A stretch of 16,375 bases of DNA, from contig JBHHXN010000118.1 of the NCBI GenBank assembly GCA_046757025.1, forward strand, positions 1-16,375, written 5' to 3'. This document shows positions 1 to 14,145 of the stretch, piece after piece (position 1 is the stretch's first letter; each line of letters begins with the position of its first letter). The DNA is from a bacterium (GTDB lineage: Bacteria; Zhuqueibacterota; Zhuqueibacteria; Oceanimicrobiales; Oceanimicrobiaceae). The position numbers and the translations under genes were made by a program. Below the pieces are notes generated by a model. It was not told where the DNA came from. It did no database searches and worked only from the letters and a program-made list of their open reading frames with translations.

Positions 1-84
1 TTCCGTCGCCTCGCTCCTTCAGAATGACATTTTCTGAGTAAATTGGATAACCGTAGTCGAAGGGTGATAAGCTGTTGTTTTTAC

Positions 85-115
85 GTCATGCTTCGACTCC
101 GCTCAGCATGAAGAC
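85..115. repeat. REP-like palindrome (core CTTCGACTCCGCTCAG) with TCATGCT/AGCATGA arms
   Basis: Hairpin arms at 86-92 and 105-111. Related inverted copies occur at 883-896, 922-957 and 7317-7341, with degenerate pieces at 53-66 and 7365-7412. Confidence 0.7.
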
Positions 116-151
116 GCTCGTTTTCGGTCAATCACAAATTACAAAAGTTCT

Positions 152-185
152 AAAAACAAGGCCCAGGAAACCTGAGCTTCCTTGT
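152..185 (-). terminator. Intrinsic terminator of the ECF sigma gene
   Basis: The minus strand reads ACAAGGAA-GCTCAGG-TTT-CCTGGGC-CTTGTTTTT: a stem-loop followed by a U tract, about 20 nt after the stop codon at 207. Confidence 0.7.
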
Positions 186-206
186 CATTCAAAATCAAAT
201 CTCGAT

Positions 207-788
207 CTAAAGATAGCCGTGCTCCACCGCATACGGTTTGAGAGATTTTGCGAGCTGACGACGACCCCGATTGAGCCGGGACATGACGGTACCGATTGGG
301 CAGTTGAGCAAATCAGCGATTTCATGATATTTGAGGCTGTTCACATCGGCTAACAGCACCACTGTCCTGAAATGGTCGGGCAATTTGTCCAGCGCGCGTG
401 TGATGCCGTCGTCGAAAACTTCCTCATATTTCTCCACCAGCTCTTCCTGGATGGTTTCTTCGGGAGATTCGGCGATGGCGTGAGTATCGCTGACGATGTC
501 AAAATCCAGTTGACCAGGCCGCCGCTTTTTCTTGCGATAGTCGTTGATAAAATTGTTGGTGAGAATCCGCATCATCCAGCCTTCAAAATTGGTGCCGCTT
601 TGAAAATTATCGTAAAATCGCCAGGCTTTTAGATAGCTGTTTTGAACCAGATCTTCCGCGTCAAACTGATCCCGGGTCATGGTCAGAGCGATGCTGTAAA
701 ATTTATTCATCAAAGGAAACGCTTCGGCTGCAAAATCCCGATATTTGTTGGGATCTTTGTTTGCAACTCTTCGATCCATAAATTGCAT
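207..788 (-). CDS. ECF (group IV sigma-70) RNA polymerase sigma factor, SigH/SigR/RpoE-like
   Basis: Region 2 reads DAEDLVQ..YLKAW...NFEGWMMRILTNNFINDYRK. Region 4 reads LDKLPDHFRTVVLL...YHEIADLLNCPIGTVMSRLNRGR. AGGAGG lies 8 nt upstream of the ATG. Confidence 0.95.
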   Translation of the reverse strand: MQFMDRRVANKDPNKYRDFAAEAFPLMNKFYSIALTMTRDQFDAEDLVQNSYLKAWRFYDNFQSGTNFEGWMMRILTNNFINDYRKKKRRPGQLDFDIVSDTHAIAESPEETIQEELVEKYEEVFDDGITRALDKLPDHFRTVVLLADVNSLKYHEIADLLNCPIGTVMSRLNRGRRQLAKSLKPYAVEHGYL

Positions 789-921
789 TGTATAATCCTC
801 CTACGAAATTACGTCCTACTTCGGTTTAATTCATATTTTTGAATTCTAAGTATTCCATTTCAAAATTGATTGTCGGGTACCGGTCTTCATGCTGAGTCCC
901 AATTCAAAATCGGAAAACCAT

Positions 922-957
922 GATCTTCACCCTGAGCGGAGTCAAAGGGTGAAGATC
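922..957. repeat. REP-like palindrome, same family as 85-115
   Basis: Perfect 12-bp arms GATCTTCACCCT/AGGGTGAAGATC surround GAGCGGAGTCAA. The core CTGAGCGGAGTCAAAG is one mismatch from the reverse complement of 91-106. Confidence 0.7.
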
Positions 958-1009
958 GGTAGCTGCTATTATCTCCTGTGAACCCCACAACTATTTCTGA
1001 AATGGCGCA

Positions 1010-1276
1010 CTAAGGGTTCGAATATAATTTAAAAAACGTCTTCAAAAGATTTTCAGAAAGCCAGCTCCCGATGTTCAAACCCTGCTCGCCTTTGCAATAT
1101 TCTTTTTCCGCATTAAACAAGGTTTTTTCCACTAACACTCTTGCCTGAGGTGGACTCTTCGTCATACTTAAAGCCGTCATAAACAACATCTCTTTGTATG
1201 AATGGGTAATTTTTATAAATTCGTCATGACGATTGCTTTCATCATCTTTTGCACTATCCGTATTTTGTTTTTCCAA
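1010..1276 (-). CDS. Small stand-alone sigma-70 region-2-like protein (88 aa, no region 4)
   Basis: Aligns by eye without gaps to region 2 of the neighbouring ECF sigma (16/68 identities: ALxMT, A..LV, Y, GxN, W, L, F, Y). TTG start is preceded by GGGAG. Confidence 0.7.
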   Translation of the reverse strand: MEKQNTDSAKDDESNRHDEFIKITHSYKEMLFMTALSMTKSPPQARVLVEKTLFNAEKEYCKGEQGLNIGSWLSENLLKTFFKLYSNP

Positions 1277-1340
1277 AACTTATCACTCCCTGATATATAA
1301 TAAACCGAATCCAGAAAATACCTGAAAAAGCAAATTGAAC

Positions 1341-1628
1341 TTAATCCAGTACGTTAATGGACATTCCAGCCGAGTACAACATGTTTTTGACAAAGGTCGG
1401 GCAGTTCAGTAAAAAAACATGGCTGGTAAGTAATTTTTTAAACGCCTCAACTGCACGTGGACAAATAAATGTCACTTCACAAATTTCGAGAATGATCTGG
1501 CGCTGGTTATTCTGCAAAATCTTACGGATTTCTTCGGTCCAACAGGTGATGTGTTCCTCGGTTATCTCGCCTTCAATTTTTACAATCGCTGTTAAATCGT
1601 TTTCATAAACGGTTTTCATTCGAAACAT
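1341..1628 (-). CDS. STAS-like (anti-sigma-antagonist fold) protein lacking the canonical phospho-Ser motif
   Basis: The pattern IVKIEGEI...IILEICEVTFICPRAV...LLNCPTFVKNML..AG follows STAS secondary-structure motifs. A GAGG RBS precedes the ATG. Confidence 0.75.
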   Translation of the reverse strand: MFRMKTVYENDLTAIVKIEGEITEEHITCWTEEIRKILQNNQRQIILEICEVTFICPRAVEAFKKLLTSHVFLLNCPTFVKNMLYSAGMSINVLD

Positions 1629-1660
1629 GCCATCCTCACAATTGAATTCGAGTGCATCAC

Positions 1661-1677
1661 TACGAAAATTGTGCCAA
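1661..1677 (-). promoter_or_regulatory. Putative sigma54 (-24/-12) promoter
   Basis: The minus strand reads TTGGCACAATTTTCGTA: a perfect -24 TGGCAC, then GG-N10-GT, a variant of the canonical GC at -12. It lies about 33 nt upstream of the STAS ATG. Confidence 0.6.
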
Positions 1678-1776
1678 AAAGAAAAAAGCCACCAGGTACA
1701 CGACCTAAGTGGCTTGTTTATAAACAGTTAGTAAATTTAATTAAAAGCGCTTCAATTCACCCTACCAAGACATTTT

Positions 1777-1811
1777 GTGTCGATATTTCAACACCGTGTC
1801 GGTATTTCAAC
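1777..1811. promoter_or_regulatory. Tandem upstream activator sequences for a bEBP
   Basis: Direct repeat GTGTCGATATTTCAAC (1777-1792) and GTGTCGGTATTTCAAC (1796-1811), with a 19-bp period. Each has the form TGT-N10-AC(A/C) and lies 100-135 bp upstream of the -24 box. Confidence 0.6.
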
Positions 1812-1830
1812 CAAGATATGATTTTCGACT

Positions 1831-2727
1831 TTAAATCACAAAAAACTGTGTGGATTTTTGTTGAATTTGCCCACTATCTAGATCTTTTACGTTCAGAATC
1901 AAATTATAGGTACCGGCCTGTAGATCGTGTACCGGAATGCCGATGGAAAGGGAACAAACGCTGCCCGGTTTCTCTTTGCTGTTGCTGATGGTTTTTAATT
2001 CATGCCCTTTTTGATCCCGTATGGTAAAAGTGGCGATGAAATTTTTGTTCATGCCGTTGGCATTGTAGTGTAAATTATAAACTTCAGAATAAATATATAA
2101 CACCTTCAAATCCCTACCCACTACTCTCGTCACATTGGGAATAATCTTTTGATTATTTTTCACCAGCACGCTTTTTTCGTTTGAATAGGTGATGGAAGAA
2201 GCGATCTGCAGATCGCTGAATTGCAATTCAGATTTTCTATAATCAGGGATGTCGAGATCGCGGTCAAATGAAATTATTTCCAGAGTCTCAAGATCTTTCA
2301 GATTGATTTTGGCCTGATAGAAACCCGGATCGAGATCGACATGAAATCGAATTAACTGCGGTGGCCGCGGTTTATCGATTTCCGCGAAGGATTTAACTTT
2401 TATCGTGTCGATGTAACTGGCGCCGTGAATTTTCGCACCGGAAGCGTTATAAAAGCCAAGGGACAATTCATAGCTTGCGAAAAATCCTTCTTTGAATTTT
2501 ACAAACTGCAGACTGTTGGTTGAAATTTGACTGAAAATTTCAAGGGTAGTTTTATTGCTGAAGGCGGTTCCTTTAAACGTGAGAAAGTCAAAAGCGTAAG
2601 ACTGCTGTTGGAGTTTACCATAAGAAAAGGCCTGCAAGGCAGTTAATAAAACCACCCCAACTACTGTACAAACTCGGTAGGATTGCATCAGTTTTTTGTA
2701 AACGGCTTCTCGTTTTTTCATAAGCAT
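1831..2727 (-). CDS. Exported hypothetical protein, beta-sandwich rich, resembling the N-terminal part of GWxTD-domain proteins
   Basis: Hydrophobic signal or anchor VCTVVGVVLLTALQAFS. Motifs include LQFVK....ASYEL, LQFSDLQIASSI, IIPN, LYIYSEVYNL and GTYNLILNVKD. GGAGG RBS at 2732-2736 supports an ATG at 2727 or 2721 rather than 2745. Confidence 0.7.
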   Translation of the reverse strand: MLMKKREAVYKKLMQSYRVCTVVGVVLLTALQAFSYGKLQQQSYAFDFLTFKGTAFSNKTTLEIFSQISTNSLQFVKFKEGFFASYELSLGFYNASGAKIHGASYIDTIKVKSFAEIDKPRPPQLIRFHVDLDPGFYQAKINLKDLETLEIISFDRDLDIPDYRKSELQFSDLQIASSITYSNEKSVLVKNNQKIIPNVTRVVGRDLKVLYIYSEVYNLHYNANGMNKNFIATFTIRDQKGHELKTISNSKEKPGSVCSLSIGIPVHDLQAGTYNLILNVKDLDSGQIQQKSTQFFVI

Positions 2728-2941
2728 GATTCCTCCATGCTTCAATCCAATTTAAGATAATTTTTTACACTTTTCTTTTTATGACATTAATTTTTTCTAA
2801 TATATTCCAATTTTCGTTTTGAATCTTAAAAATTTTCCGTGGATTCCTGAGCCGGTAAATTTTTGAATGGACGTCTTTATGCGCCGACGGCGAAAATGAA
2901 AATCAGACAAATGATAGAAGGAAAGTGCACAAAGATAAAAG

Positions 2942-5194
2942 TTAGTTTTGGTGTGACTCCGTCGCCGTTTTATCGATGCCCAATTTTTTCATGCGCGACA
3001 GCAGCGTCGTGCGATTGATATCGAGCAGATTCGCCGCGCCATCCGGCCCTCCGATCACGCCGCCGGTTTTCTGCAGCGTTTTGAGAATGTGTTGACGTTC
3101 CACTTGCTCCAGGGTTAAAATCTCGGACTCCAGCAATTGTGTGGGGCTGGAAATGGCGATGTGCTCCTTTTGTAAGACGCCTGCTTCACACAAAATCACC
3201 GCTCGCTCAAGGATGTTGGCCAATTCCCGCACATTGCCAGGCCAGTCATAATTCATCAGCAAATCCATGGCCTCCGGGCTAAAACTGCTGATGCGTTTGC
3301 CCATTCTTTGTGAGTATTTGCCCACAAAATAGCTGCTCAACAAAGCAATGTCGTCTTTTCGCTCTCTTAAGGGCGGAATTCGAATGGGAAAAATGTTCAG
3401 GCGATAGAACAGATCTGCTCTGAAAGAACCGATGTTCACGGCATCCTGGAGATCGCGGTTGGTAGCAGCAATGACGCGCACATCGACTTTCAATGTTTGT
3501 TCACCGCCTACTCTTTCAAACTCCTGTTCCTGTAAAATGCGCAGCAGCTTTATTTGGGTTTCCAGCGGCAGCTCGCCGATTTCATCCAGAAAGATGGTGC
3601 CGCCGTCAGCAAGCTCGAACTTGCCTTTTTTCATGGCAGTGGCGCCGGTGAACGCGCCTTTTTCGTGCCCGAACAGCTCGCTCTCCACCAACCCGCTCGG
3701 CAGCGCTGCGCAGTTTACTTTGATGAGTACGTTGTCCTTTAATCCACTTAATCGGTGAATCGCGCGCGCGATGAGTTCTTTGCCAGTACCGGTCTCTCCC
3801 AGCAAAAGCACGGTGGTGTTGGTAGCCGCGACTTTTTCAATATATTCATAAACCTGCTTGATGGCCCGGGAAGCGCCGACGATTTCACCAAAGTTAAACT
3901 GCGACTTGATCTCTTCCTGCAGATAGATATTTTGCATTTGCAATTTATTGAGCGCAGCTTCCGCTTTTTTGCGCTCCTCGATATCCCGCAGAATAATGGT
4001 AAACAACGGCTCTCCGGCCACCGTCACCTGCGAAAAGGTCGCTTCGATGGCAAACTCCTGGCCGTCGGACCGGCGGGCAGACAGGCCCTCTTGAGCCCAC
4101 ATGTACTGTTTGGTTGACTCCCGCCCGGCGGATTCGGTCACGTACTGCATCAACAACTGGTAGAATTTGTCGGTGAGGAAGCGTTGCAGACTTTTGCCGA
4201 TACATTCGCTGGCGGTACACTGTAAAACTTTTTCGGCCGACTGATTGAAGAGCACGACCTGCAGGTCTTTGTCGATGGTTATGATGGCATCCAAGGCCGA
4301 TTCCAGAATACGGGACAGACGTTCCTCGCTTTCGCGGATGGCCTTTTCAGCTTGAATTCGCTCGGAAATATCGCGTGCCAGCGCCAGACGGAGTTTCTGC
4401 CCGCCCGACTCAAACAAACAGATACGCACCTCCACCGGAAATGTGGAGCCGTCTTTGCGTTTGTGAATGCCTTGCATGGTCACGGGATCGTCTGAATTCA
4501 TTCGCTGAATCATTTTAAAATATTTATCCCGAGATAGGCCGATGGAAATATCCCACACAAATTTTTCCTTGAGCTCCTGCCGGCTGAATTGCAGCACCTT
4601 GCAAGCCTGCTGGTTCACGTCCACTATTTGGCCTTTTGGGGCGATTAAAAAAAACGCGTCGCCGGCGTTTTCAAACAACAGCCGAAAACGCTCCTCGCTT
4701 TCCTGCAGTTTTCTTTCAGCTTGTTTGCGCTCGCTGATATCCCGTACCAATGCGATCATACACTCCCGGCCGTCGATATCGATGACCGAAGCGGAAATCT
4801 CTGCCGGCAGGGCGCCGCCGGATTTTGTGACGCAGGAAAGCTCGTCGGTCCAGCCGCGGCCATCTTTAAATACCGTCTGTGCAAACGCAAGCATTTTCGG
4901 CATTTCTCGGGGATGAATGCGGGTGACGGAGGAGGAGAGCAGCTCCTGGCGTGAGTAGCCAAGCAATGTACAGGCCCTGGGATTGACATCGATGATTTTA
5001 TCCTGATGCGGATCGAGCACAAAAATGGCGTCGTTGGAATAATCAAAAACCCTGTGGAAACGTTCTTCGCTTTTGCGCAGCTCTGCTTCAACACGCTCGT
5101 GCTCAGAACGCAGTTTTTCCAGTCGCTTCAATTTGGCTCGACAAGCTTCCAATTCTCTCAAAAGAGGATCATCCGCTTTGCTTTTACCCTTCAT
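2942..5194 (-). CDS. Sigma54-dependent enhancer-binding protein (FhlA/NtrC-type AAA+) with three PAS domains and a Fis-type HTH
   Basis: Three PAS/PAC repeats (SEERF..., ending RDISER/RDIEER). Also Walker [49 protein letters not shown] and C-terminal [31 protein letters not shown]. Confidence 0.95.
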
Positions 5195-5612: not shown

Positions 5613-6101
5613 TCACTGCAGGTAGTGCAGATATTCAGATAAAAACTCGCTGGCGATGAGGGTTTCCACCGAAAGCCAGAACAATTGCTGGTGATGAGGA
5701 AACACATAATGGGTTTGCCCCATGCCGAAACAACGGTAAATCCGCTTCCCCTGAATATCCAAATAGGTTCCTTCGATGAAAACGGAATTTTCGGGAGATA
5801 TTTTGTGGGTCATCTTTTGCCAGTTAGAACGGGCCAGCTCGGGATTGGCATAGTATGAAACGTACAGGGTGGCCGACCCCTTTTCTCCGCGGTAAAATCC
5901 TATGGCATTTTCGGGCGCCGAAACCTGTCCCAGGTGCATCTTGTCCAGGTAGGTGCTGGCTTCCTCGCCGATCATTTTTTGATGGAGTTTGAACTGATAA
6001 ATTTCCTCCGGCAGCGGGTCTGGTGCGGATGAGCAAGCGACCACCAACGTTGCCAGCCAAAGCAATTGTGTTCGTACTTTTTTCAAATTAATTCGCTTCA
6101 T
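5613..6101 (-). CDS. Hypothetical lipoprotein
   Basis: From the ATG at 6101 it has a basic N-terminus, a hydrophobic stretch and lipobox VVA-C (MKRINLKKVRTQLLWLATLVVACSS). The composition is protein-like. Confidence 0.75.
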   Translation of the reverse strand: MKRINLKKVRTQLLWLATLVVACSSAPDPLPEEIYQFKLHQKMIGEEASTYLDKMHLGQVSAPENAIGFYRGEKGSATLYVSYYANPELARSNWQKMTHKISPENSVFIEGTYLDIQGKRIYRCFGMGQTHYVFPHHQQLFWLSVETLIASEFLSEYLHYLQ

Positions 6102-6151
6102 TGAAATGCCTTCTGTCTTATTTGATGATGGAAAGCACACTAATTATAAAA

Positions 6152-6229: not shown

Positions 6230-6679
6230 ATGAAACCACTCATTAAATTACTGTTTATCGTTCTGCTGGCGATTTCCTTTGTACCGGTGCAAATTGGGCT
6301 GGCTAAGGAAAAAACCACAGACTGGAAGGCTTTCAGCGCTAATCTCGTGAAAGCCATTCAAACCCCAATCGACGGGCTGCAACAATCGGCCATGCAGCAA
6401 ATCATCAATTACAGCGACAATCTGGACGTGGAAGATGCGGTATTCGACATCATGCGCATTTACCGCGGCCACAAAAATTTGCATGTACGGCAGTTGGCGC
6501 TGGCCACGCTCCCTAAAACCAACAGCAATTGGGCCATCAGCTTTTTGAAAGTACTGGTGGAATACGAAGATTCGCCGGTGCTGCAAAAGCAAATTTATTT
6601 CATTCTGAAAGATGCTCGGGATGTGCAGATTGTGGACATCCCTCAAAGCGCATTGAATGAACTCTTGGCTATCAAATAG
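6230..6679 (+). CDS. Secreted hypothetical protein, alpha-helical (HEAT-repeat-like)
   Basis: GGAGG RBS and Sec signal peptide MKPLIKLLFIVLLAISFVPVQIGLA. HEAT-like segments include VRQLALATL and AISFLKVLVEYEDSPVLQ. Followed by a terminator. Confidence 0.85.
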   Translation: MKPLIKLLFIVLLAISFVPVQIGLAKEKTTDWKAFSANLVKAIQTPIDGLQQSAMQQIINYSDNLDVEDAVFDIMRIYRGHKNLHVRQLALATLPKTNSNWAISFLKVLVEYEDSPVLQKQIYFILKDARDVQIVDIPQSALNELLAIK

Positions 6680-13121: not shown

Positions 13122-13460
13122 TCAGCTACGGATGATTTCATTAATTCCTTCAATTATATATTCTAATTCCTCAGGGAGATACCTTACCTAATTTTTTTTA
13201 ATTCTTAAAGTTGATAAAGTTCTAATCTAACTTATTTTCACCCATGAGTGCTTTGGCAATTCCGAGGTTGATAATTCTAATGTAAGTGGGAAACCTGCTC
13301 TTTGAGGTTGACTGGTTAAGGCTAACGCAATGACAGTTCCAGAACATTCATTAAAAATATTGTTGCTAAATATTAGAACCGGTCTAAGACCAGCCTGCTC
13401 ATGTCCAATGGTCGGGTTAAAATCTGCCCAATACACCTCACCTCTCAATATTGTGGCCAT
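13122..13460 (-). pseudogene. mazF: PemK/MazF-family mRNA interferase toxin, inactivated
   Basis: N-terminus reads [25 protein letters not shown]. The same frame continues SWVKIS*IRTLSTLRIKKN*VRYLPEELEYIIEGINEIIRS to TGA at 13122-13124 (113 codons) with two internal TAG stops. Confidence 0.85.
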
Positions 13461-13687
13461 AACTCAAGATCGTGGGACAGACCTTCTTCAGCCATTGACT
13501 GTTCGAGCTCAGGATCGAATTTTGCACACTCTTTAGCCAGTCGACTTTTATCAATTCGAATTAATTTTTCTCTTACTGCTTCTTGTATGATGTTGCTTCG
13601 ATTCGGATAAACTTTCTCCTTTACAAGAAGGTCGAGTTTCTTAAGAAGTTGGCTGTCAATTGTCATGGCTACTTTTGCTGTTGACAT
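13445..13687 (-). CDS. Ribbon-helix-helix (CopG/NikR-like) antitoxin, 80 aa
   Basis: RHH pattern [19 protein letters not shown]....[14 protein letters not shown] and an acidic C-terminus. It overlaps the toxin start. GGAG RBS precedes the ATG at 13687. Confidence 0.88.
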
Positions 13688-13705
13688 CGAATTCTCCATT
13701 AATTG

Positions 13706-13724
13706 GTATGATTCATCGTCATAC
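13706..13724. promoter_or_regulatory. Probable TA autoregulatory operator
   Basis: Inverted repeat GTATGA-N7-TCATAC just upstream of the antitoxin RBS. It overlaps a candidate -10 (CTGACA-N16-TAAAGT on the minus strand). Confidence 0.55.
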
Positions 13725-14145
13725 TTTACACTTTTTAAATAAAATGTCAGTTTTATTGTCAAATTTCACGCTCGCAGGGGATTTACACCCCCATGCCTTT
13801 CTACCATGAAATTCCCTGTGAGCGACAAATTTTTACGGCACGTACTTTTTTAGTCATTTACGATCACCTCGTGATAATTGTTATTCTTTGAATCAGTTGA
13901 TACTCATTTTTTAAAATATAAGACAACTGCAGATCAAAACCAACGATATTTTTCGCTTGTTTCCAAATTAGTCAAATCACTTGGCGTATGTTTGTTTCAA
14001 CCGCAGAGAAAGTTTCCAACCCGTGTTTCGTCCAGTAACGTCCGATTGTTTTAGTTCAAACCCAATTGGATTTCCTCCCGTTTTCGACTTGATTTGTAGT
14101 ACCGCGCTTGCTCGCAACTAACAGAGGAAAATTTGGCCATCCATT

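What the first reader, a model, noticed from the sequence alone, without database searches (positions are those of the whole stretch)
207..5194. Possible sigma cascade: triple-PAS bEBP and sigma54 driving a STAS / sigma2-only / orphan ECF sigma unit
Seen in the sequence: upstream of three co-oriented regulatory genes lie a -24/-12-like box (1661-1677) and tandem TGT-N10-AC(A/C) repeats (1777-1811). An intact GAFTGA-containing activator is encoded 1.1 kb away. The ECF gene is followed directly by a terminator, with no anti-sigma gene. Established knowledge: bEBPs bind tandem palindromic sites about 80-150 bp upstream of the promoter (the NifA UAS is TGT-N10-ACA). SigR/SigH-like ECFs are usually co-encoded with a zinc anti-sigma. 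Inference: a cytoplasmic PAS signal is relayed through sigma54 to an ECF regulon, with two small accessory proteins taking the place of the usual anti-sigma control.
Basis: partly seen in the sequence, partly recalled or inferred. Interest (0 to 1): 0.7.

Follow-up and report, generated by a model that had tools for sequence, protein, structure and literature searches.

The report
Portable sigma54-to-ECF sigma relay cassette
A sensor-activator gene, its binding sites and a sigma54 promoter sit in a fixed layout in front of a small STAS gene and a stress-type sigma factor in two bacterial phyla, so one signal likely switches on a second sigma factor, while the two small accessory proteins are real but probably do not replace the usual anti-sigma.

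Summary
The paired activator sites, the -24/-12 box and the genes are present. Box plus paired sites occur once in the genome, and rpoN is present. The layout recurs: 28 of 30 STAS-family loci (29 KSB1, 1 Nitrospirales) have the box, 22 an adjacent activator and 15 an ECF gene. In Nitrospirales relatives 20 of 23 loci have each of these features. A bEBP→sigma54→ECF cascade, HrpRS/HrpL-like in logic, is therefore likely. The SigH/SigR-like sigma lies in a well-supported clade of 22 with no anti-sigma next door. The idea that the accessories replace the anti-sigma is weakened: the STAS persists without any ECF (14 of 30) and beside a zinc anti-sigma-like gene (16 of 18 Nitrospirales loci). The sigma2-only gene is optional (5 of 30) but belongs to a 13-member family under purifying selection that lost core- and DNA-binding residues. 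No binding or transcript test could be run. The scan noted a related Nitrospirales sigma54→ECF circuit before (e1-9891104). New variant of a known kind.

The parts
2942..5194 (-). FhlA-type sigma54 activator (bEBP), 750 aa: 3 PAS, AAA+ with GAFTGA, Fis-type HTH with recognition helix NRTTLLSRM
   Evidence: this helix type seen once among 38 GAFTGA-type ORFs of the genome (read by eye, one ORF cut by a contig end)
1831..2745 (-). 304-aa ORF like the N-terminal part of GWxTD proteins, without the GWxTD domain; optional passenger, upstream of the promoter here and downstream of it in L046 and L050
1797..1812 (.). distal activator site (16-bp imperfect palindrome)
1778..1793 (.). proximal activator site, ending 103 bp before the -24 G
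   Evidence: 101-104 bp in 14 of 28 loci
1677..1713 (-). hairpin (1688-1713) plus T-tract ending at the -24 box; likely a terminator shielding the promoter from upstream read-through
   Evidence: fold -15.3 kcal/mol, z -2.4; 78% of cells paired and 5 of 11 pairs with two-sided changes in 16 loci
1661..1676 (-). sigma54 -24/-12 box with non-consensus -14 (C) and -12 (T); predicted +1 near 1650
1341..1628 (-). single-domain STAS protein, 95 aa, Pro at the canonical phosphoacceptor position
   Evidence: AF2 pLDDT 90.7; Foldseek SpoIIAA/RsbV E 2e-6
1010..1276 (-). sigma2-only protein, 88 aa, TTG start with a GGGAG ribosome-binding site; diverged member of a KSB1 sigma2-only family
846..1009 (.). 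multicopy REP-like repeat with a strong hairpin, inserted between sigma2-only and ECF
   Evidence: 45 other genome hits; hairpin -22.3 kcal/mol, z -4.9; the gap is 51 bp in L049
207..788 (-). SigH/SigR (ECF12)-like sigma factor, 193 aa, no anti-sigma gene at +1
   Evidence: (best PDB hit a chain named SigH, E 2.3e-40)
148..194 (-). intrinsic terminator-like hairpin after the ECF (core stem 161-177)

Best explanation
This is a conserved, portable cassette in which a PAS-containing activator likely binds the paired sites and switches on a sigma54 promoter, which would transcribe STAS, sigma2-only and an ECF sigma that has no anti-sigma gene beside it. Shown: genes, sites, geometry, synteny, and the clade without an adjacent anti-sigma. 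Inferred: an unknown cytoplasmic ligand activates the PAS-bEBP; it loops from sites at about -128 to -162 to sigma54-RNAP; the hairpin before -24 blocks read-through from the activator gene; sigma output is set mainly by transcription. The new sigma likely drives the same GGAAY-N18-GTT promoters as the genome's zinc-anti-sigma-controlled paralogue (C3), giving that stress regulon a second, sigma54-gated input. STAS and sigma2-only are co-expressed modulators, not substitute anti-sigmas. My preferred but weak guess (about 0.3) is that they act as phosphorylation-independent decoys for zinc anti-sigmas encoded elsewhere.
For: Box upstream of 28 of 30 STAS-family genes; site pair (spacing 18-20) ends 101-104 bp before -24 in 14 of 28 by an automatic pick, with 5 more at 96-99. 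Adjacent co-oriented bEBP in 22 of 30, ECF downstream in 15 of 30. In the order of G167 (record titled Nitrospirales), box, bEBP and ECF each in 20 of 23 loci. High-GC metagenome contigs L156 and L158 show sites-box-STAS-ECF, L156 also the bEBP. Site sequence follows the activator helix: Arg-type helices go with TGTYG/TGCYG-type sites, KPTTL helices with CCCAA..TGGG-type sites (25 rows read by eye). The window ECF falls in a 100/99 clade of 22 with no zinc anti-sigma at +1, 17 of them cassette-linked; a second group of 3 was recruited separately. No GGAAY-N16-20-GTT in window 200-2950, whereas paralogues C3 and C73 have one. C3's neighbour is zf-HC2/RsrA-like. rpoN present. Precedent: HrpRS-sigma54-HrpL (PMC8999054, PMC5263251 passages). 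For the decoy guess: STAS-ECF fusions (P0007; a 53-member Atlas cluster), STAS-ECF-ZAS order in Nitrospirales, STAS at -1 in ECF19s7/s18, and the sigma2-only family keeping fold and region 2.1 while losing E/D/Q and R/N/Y.
Against: No transcript or binding data. The -12 element is non-consensus: -14 is G/C in 22 of 28 cassette boxes, whereas this genome's upstream boxes are enriched only for TTG(C/T/A) (70 sense against 12 antisense), so the promoter may be weak. In the window a 304-aa ORF separates activator and sites, and 8 of 30 loci have no adjacent activator; the genome holds 38 GAFTGA-type ORFs, so another activator could act. A strong REP-like hairpin lies between sigma2-only and ECF and could uncouple the ECF here. 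Regulon sharing is inferred from conserved helices only, and the motif enrichment is modest (65 against 38). Loci are phylogenetically related, so counts overstate independence. The window's sigma2-only copy fell outside the family clade on a very long branch. Half of the 30 cassettes have no ECF seen.
Confidence: 0.7

Rival explanations
1. Same cascade, but the STAS is a feedback brake on the activator or on sigma54 initiation (HrpV-like in logic), which is why it heads the transcript whatever cargo follows.
For: STAS travels with the box (28 of 30) more tightly than with an ECF (15 of 30), and activator input domains vary (PAS, REC+PAS, kinase+GAF) while the AAA+/HTH part is 61-73% identical. 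HrpV inhibits HrpS.
Against: Related activators and promoters occur without STAS (L057, L143-L145, C162, C177). STAS-ECF fusions and repeated STAS-ECF adjacency with three ECF types point to the sigma side.
Confidence: 0.3
2. One reading: STAS and sigma2-only together inhibit the ECF and so replace the missing anti-sigma.
For: No anti-sigma at +1 in the 22-member clade; STAS directly precedes the ECF at 11-63 bp in several loci; STAS-ECF fusions exist.
Against: STAS kept without ECF in 14 of 30 and beside a zinc anti-sigma-like gene in 16 of 18; cassette ECFs without STAS; sigma2-only in 5 of 30.
Confidence: 0.12
3. The window's sigma2-only ORF is a decaying duplicate with no function, and the ECF is partly uncoupled by the repeat insertion.
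For: No homologue among 2 candidates in the protein search; branch length 4.6 and placement outside the family clade; it lacks several family residues such as R18, R21, I25. Frameshifted ECF remnants do occur in such loci (L047, L059, L141).
Against: Intact 88-codon frame of family length with a ribosome-binding site; same position after STAS as in L046, L049, L053, L093; leave-one-out score 54.9 bits to the family against 40.7-42.6 to full ECFs; pN 0.39-0.46 against pS 0.78-0.88 to three relatives.
Confidence: 0.2
4. The box is not a working sigma54 promoter and the genes are read from a sigma70-family promoter or by read-through.
For: Non-consensus -12; sigma70-like matches exist in the region, at chance level (8 found, 8.8 expected).
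Against: Fixed geometry and conservation across families and a second phylum, where the box is canonical (19 TTGC, 1 TTGA of 20); a terminator-like hairpin just upstream.
Confidence: 0.07

Closest known systems
HrpR/HrpS - sigma54 - HrpL (ECF32) cascade of Pseudomonas syringae, with HrpV/HrpG
   Same: An enhancer-binding protein activates a sigma54 promoter that makes an ECF sigma controlled at transcription rather than by a linked anti-sigma (passages).
   Different: One PAS-bearing activator rather than a heterohexamer; ECF12-like sigma (other ECF types in other lineages); STAS and sigma2-only genes in the transcript; a terminator-like hairpin at the -24 box; no secretion-system cargo.
ECF12 (Streptomyces SigR-RsrA, Mycobacterium SigH-RshA)
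   Same: Best NCBIfam and PDB matches; the paralogue C3 has the zinc anti-sigma at +1 and a GGAAT-N18-GTT site.
   Different: The window copy has neither, and sits behind a sigma54 box. The ECF12 supplement section lists subgroups lacking an anti-sigma but mentions no sigma54 or STAS link.
SpoIIAA/RsbV anti-anti-sigma factors; Vibrio fischeri SypA
   Same: Single STAS domain, same fold. SypA as a STAS protein of unknown target in the syp locus (listing and abstract start); its sigma54/SypG control is recalled.
   Different: Phosphoacceptor Ser in only 2 of 27 family members and 15 of 142 representatives; no kinase or phosphatase gene in the cassette.
PhyR sigma-like domain (sigma factor mimic)
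   Same: A sigma-shaped domain that would act as a decoy rather than a sigma (passage); the Atlas structural top row is a stand-alone sigma2/PhyR_sigma2 cluster.
   Different: Only sigma2, with no sigma4-like part and no receiver domain; no NepR; binding partner unknown.

Membership tests
sigma54 enhancer-binding proteins | AAA+ Sigma54_activat domain with GAFTGA, Walker motifs and C-terminal HTH | tested here: met
sigma54-dependent promoter | -24 TGGCAC element | tested here: met
   1671-1676; conserved in 28 of 30 loci
sigma54-dependent promoter | consensus -12 TTGC | tested here: not met
   TCGT here; only T-15 and G-13 are kept; G/C at -14 in 22 of 28
sigma54-dependent promoter | tandem upstream activator sites at fixed distance, rpoN in genome | tested here: met
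sigma54-dependent promoter | TSS about 12 nt from the -12 box, dependent on rpoN and activator | not testable with these tools
   needs transcript mapping and genetics
HrpL-type cascade | ECF gene under a bEBP/sigma54 promoter, no linked anti-sigma | tested here: met
   at sequence level only
HrpL-type cascade (ECF32) | ECF32 sequence group and hrp cluster | tested here: not met
   best matches are SigH/SigR-type; no secretion genes in the window
ECF12 | score against the published ECF12 group HMM | not testable with these tools
   HMMs not held; proxy TIGR02947 179.6 bits, below its actinobacterial cut-off
ECF12 | zinc anti-sigma at +1 | tested here: not met
   terminator follows; none in the 22-member clade
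ECF12 | GGAAY-N17/18-GTT promoter upstream (autoregulation) | tested here: not met
   none in 200-2950; present at paralogues C3 and C73
SpoIIAA/RsbV anti-anti-sigma | STAS fold | tested here: met
SpoIIAA/RsbV anti-anti-sigma | conserved phosphoacceptor serine after Asp | tested here: not met
   Pro here; Ser in 2 of 27 (the column was set from two canonical STAS in L085/L086, and its role is recalled)
SpoIIAA/RsbV anti-anti-sigma | linked kinase-type anti-sigma | tested here: not met
   none in the window and none recognised by eye in the fetched loci; the rest of the genome was not searched
PhyR-like sigma mimic | sigma2- and sigma4-like subdomains plus receiver domain | tested here: not met
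   88 aa, sigma2 only
PhyR-like sigma mimic | binds an anti-sigma | not tested
   no complex prediction was obtained

The most novel reading that the evidence does not exclude
The cassette is a cross-phylum switch that both makes and frees ECF sigma activity. The serine-less STAS family (925 clusters at E<=0.001, 145 at 1e-10) and the sigma2-only family would be two undescribed classes of phosphorylation-independent anti-anti-sigma factors that sequester zinc anti-sigmas after sigma54 induction. The conserved non-consensus -14 base and the hairpin at the -24 box would make the switch strictly activator-dependent.
Probability: 0.2. Interest if true: 0.75.

Novelty: new variant of a known kind. 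Interest (0 to 1): 0.52.

Why it matters
Sigma54-to-ECF relays are known mainly from HrpL. This one is a mobile cassette found in KSB1, Nitrospirales and unassigned high-GC contigs, with three different ECF types swapped in behind the same small STAS gene. It offers a testable explanation for some ECF12 factors that lack a linked anti-sigma, a gap that the ECF classification leaves open. It also defines two small protein families with no described partner, a serine-less STAS and a sigma2-only pseudo-sigma. All parts are small and could be reconstituted in E. coli.

Tried and rejected
No RNA holder was listed for the region, which is no evidence either way. The complex prediction (activator AAA+/HTH with STAS) was not available; nothing was folded. 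A word-index search with the sigma2-only protein found only itself; the family came from genome searches. The free RNAalifold consensus missed the promoter hairpin and paired its left arm with the -24 box; the named hairpin was then counted on the same alignment, so it leans on my choice of structure and of 16 loci picked for having the left arm. The sigma2-only tree did not place the window copy in the family clade. AlphaFold of the 304-aa ORF without an alignment failed (pLDDT 40) and was not searched. PAS ligand: matches to FixL, DosP and LOV structures are generic, and the FixL His (heme role recalled) is not kept in PAS3, so no cofactor was assigned. Sigma70-type promoters were at chance level. 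Rows dropped: two canonical DSS-type STAS hits (L085, L086) from the STAS count; five short sigma2 ORFs from the family (L035, L141 and L012, read as broken ECFs; L138_66 and L139_2083, a separate type); L160 (same as L071) from the Nitrospirales count; and three Nitrospirales loci with an ECF that my pattern missed (L165, L169, L181) from the 18. A recalled paper on -12 mutants was not held. Literature searches listed no description of this cassette or of the sigma2-only family; the library lacks most subscription papers, and the ECF classification supplement was cut, so its tables could bear on novelty.


Full report
Observation. All named elements are present. The ECF (207-788), the 88-aa ORF (1010-1276), the STAS (1341-1628) and the 750-aa activator (2942-5194) lie on the minus strand. 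Pfam gives Sigma70_r2/r4 for the ECF, STAS just above cut-off, and three PAS stretches, Sigma54_activat and HTH_8 for the activator. The 88-aa ORF has no Pfam hit but matches the N-terminal part of TIGR02947 and of the neighbouring ECF. The box at 1661-1676 reads TGGCAC-N5-TCGT, and two 16-bp imperfect palindromes lie at 1778-1793 and 1797-1812. With patterns chosen after seeing the window, box and pair co-occurred in 0 of 20,000 resamplings and once in the 5.96-Mb genome. rpoN is present. It resembles the N-terminal part of GWxTD proteins.

Lineage and synteny. Records of same-family genomes carry titles such as candidate division KSB1 (titles vary). A STAS profile matched 24 of 167 genomes of the phylum. 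Two matches were ordinary DSS-type STAS proteins and were dropped, leaving 29 loci; with one Nitrospirales-titled locus that makes 30. Of these, 28 have a -24/-12 box upstream and 22 an adjacent co-oriented activator. Fifteen have an ECF downstream: 12 SigH/SigR-like (one broken) and 3 of the TIGR02943 type (one tested). Fourteen have no ECF and one is cut by a contig end. In the order of that Nitrospirales genome 24 of 121 genomes matched; in the 23 further loci, box, upstream activator and downstream ECF were each found 20 times. Of 8 metagenome contigs, two high-GC ones show sites, box, STAS and a SigH-like ECF, one of them with the activator. STAS-ECF fusions exist (P0007; a 53-member Atlas cluster). 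These loci are related by descent, so the counts are not independent events.

Promoter anatomy. An automatic pick of the best site pair gave spacing 18-20 bp and an end 101-104 bp before the -24 G in 14 of 28 loci, with 5 more at 96-99. Read by eye over 25 rows, activators with Arg in the recognition helix go with TGTYG/TGCYG-type sites and KPTTL helices with CCCAA..TGGG-type sites, which argues that the adjacent activator is the cognate one. The window's helix type appears once among 38 GAFTGA-type ORFs of the genome. Two features are new. First, position -14 is G or C in 22 of 28 cassette boxes, alternating between the two, while T-15 and G-13 are kept. Genome-wide, upstream boxes are enriched only for TTG(C/T/A), 70 sense against 12 antisense, and Nitrospirales cassettes are canonical. 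I recall, without having seen the paper, that -15 and -13 matter most for strength, which would fit a working but tuned promoter. Second, a hairpin with a T-tract ends at the -24 box. In 16 loci selected for its left arm, 78% of cells pair and 5 of 11 pairs show two-sided changes, above shuffled and slid controls, although the free consensus fold missed it. It likely stops read-through from the activator gene.

The sigma factor. Its best solved relative is a chain named SigH (E 2.3e-40); group HMMs were not available. The genome has three such paralogues. C3 is canonical, with a zf-HC2/RsrA-like neighbour and a GGAAT-N18-GTT site; C73 follows a TetR gene with the same site; the window unit has no such site. 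In a tree of 59 relatives the window copy lies in a 100/99 clade of 22, none with a zinc anti-sigma at +1 and 17 cassette-linked, and a separate group of 3 was recruited to the cassette too. The ECF12 section of the classification supplement notes subgroups without an anti-sigma and leaves their control open. Region 2.4 and the sigma4 helix are nearly the same in the three paralogues, so a shared regulon is a fair inference. Candidate targets include a flavin oxidoreductase and a DoxX gene, but the motif enrichment is modest (65 against 38).

The STAS. It folds as SpoIIAA/RsbV but has Pro at the canonical serine; Ser occurs in 2 of 27 family members and 15 of 142 representatives. The family is broad (925 clusters at E<=0.001) and under purifying selection. 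It does not behave like a substitute anti-sigma. It stays when the ECF is absent, ECFs stay when it is absent (L057, L143-L145), and in Nitrospirales the ECF behind it has a zinc anti-sigma-like gene at +1 in 16 of 18 loci, read by motif (Pfam zf-HC2 in 4 of 5 tested). Two roles remain: a decoy for zinc anti-sigmas (fusions, three ECF types, STAS at -1 of ECF19s7/s18) or a brake on the activator. I rate them about equal and lean to the first. The test by structure prediction could not be run.

The sigma2-only protein. Thirteen such ORFs from three KSB1 families were collected. They keep the hydrophobic core and region 2.1, but E34, D35 and Q38, invariant in 59 of 59 full ECFs, survive in 4, 2 and 4 of 13, and N73, Y75 and R76 in 0, 1 and 0. 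Regions 2.1 and 2.2 bind both core RNAP and anti-sigma helix 4 (passages of PMC7406223); my assignment of single residues to core or DNA binding is recalled. dN/dS was about 0.1-0.5 in the ten pairs that were not saturated. Twelve members form one branch (89/86, not starred). The window copy fell elsewhere on a very long branch, though it scores higher against the family than against full ECFs (54.9 against 40.7-42.6 bits). Five members follow a STAS, one lies in a STAS-less cassette, and seven lie elsewhere without a clear box. Look-alikes of about 95 aa appear in Atlas clusters whose few named members are mostly Verrucomicrobiota (a lead only). It is therefore a real but optional pseudo-sigma.

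Caveats in this copy. A REP-like repeat with a strong hairpin fills most of the gap before the ECF and could dampen read-through. The PAS ligand is unknown, and relatives swap input domains freely.

Comparison and verdict. The logic is that of HrpRS-sigma54-HrpL (passages seen in PMC8999054, PMC5263251 and the PMC7826278 supplement); it is not a member of ECF32. Papers seen: PMC7826278 main-text passages, supplement passages and part 6 of 36; passages of PMC5095919, PMC12316311, PMC8999054, PMC5263251, PMC7406223 and PMC4598750; SypA papers as listing and abstract start only. Eight searches listed nothing on this cassette. An earlier scan note describes a Nitrospirales activator-ECF circuit with dead activator copies; it is unchecked and may concern a related locus. 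Verdict: a real, conserved cassette; cascade likely (0.7); accessories real but with unproven partners; new variant of a known kind; interest 0.52.

Noticed in passing
window 1-150 and 846-1009: REP-like palindromic repeat family; a 12-base core occurs 61 times in the genome, often as inverted pairs.
   Followed up: partly
window 1831-2745: GWxTD-N-terminal-like ORF with 9 paralogues in the genome; some carry the GWxTD domain, others, like this one, stop before it. It recurs in or next to the cassette in L046, L050 and L058.
   Followed up: partly
window 13227-13762: RHH antitoxin-like gene followed by a short (77 aa) PemK/MazF-like ORF, shorter than the 109-position model; possibly a truncated toxin-antitoxin pair.
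   Followed up: no
window 5613-6140, 6230-6679: Two ORFs with signal-peptide-like N-termini and no Pfam or NCBIfam match.
   Followed up: no
window 1341-1628: Cys76 (N-C motif) is kept in 21 of 27 family members and 99 of 142 representatives, Cys50 in 18 of 27; a thiol-sensing role is possible but untested.
   Followed up: partly
G000 genome-wide: Sigma54 boxes appear relaxed at -12 in this genome: TTGC 34, TTGA 19, TTGT 17 upstream hits against 4 each antisense.
   Followed up: partly
L184/L187 (G000 C3, C73): C73 has a TetR gene with a GGAAT-N18-GTT site overlapping a palindrome that recurs before its ECF; C3's anti-sigma is 225 aa with a C-terminal extension.
   Followed up: partly
L138:66-344, L139:2083-2355: A second type of short sigma2-only ORF, distinct from the main family, near NarL-type regulators and close to a main-family copy.
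   Followed up: no
L071:9009-9707; L056:7374-7742; L135:7651-8019: Other degenerate regulator-like ORFs near these cassettes: an AAA-like ORF with altered Walker A, and receiver-like ORFs (by eye) with no Pfam hit.
   Followed up: no
L047:3575-3928, L059:2709-3172, L141:4621-5162: Broken ECF12-like genes; in L059 an intact copy lies directly behind the broken one.
   Followed up: no
cassette cargo in L047, L056, L144, L148: Isochorismatase, AhpC/TSA, pyridoxamine-phosphate-oxidase-like and DoxX genes travel with these loci, hinting at redox or electrophile stress.
   Followed up: partly
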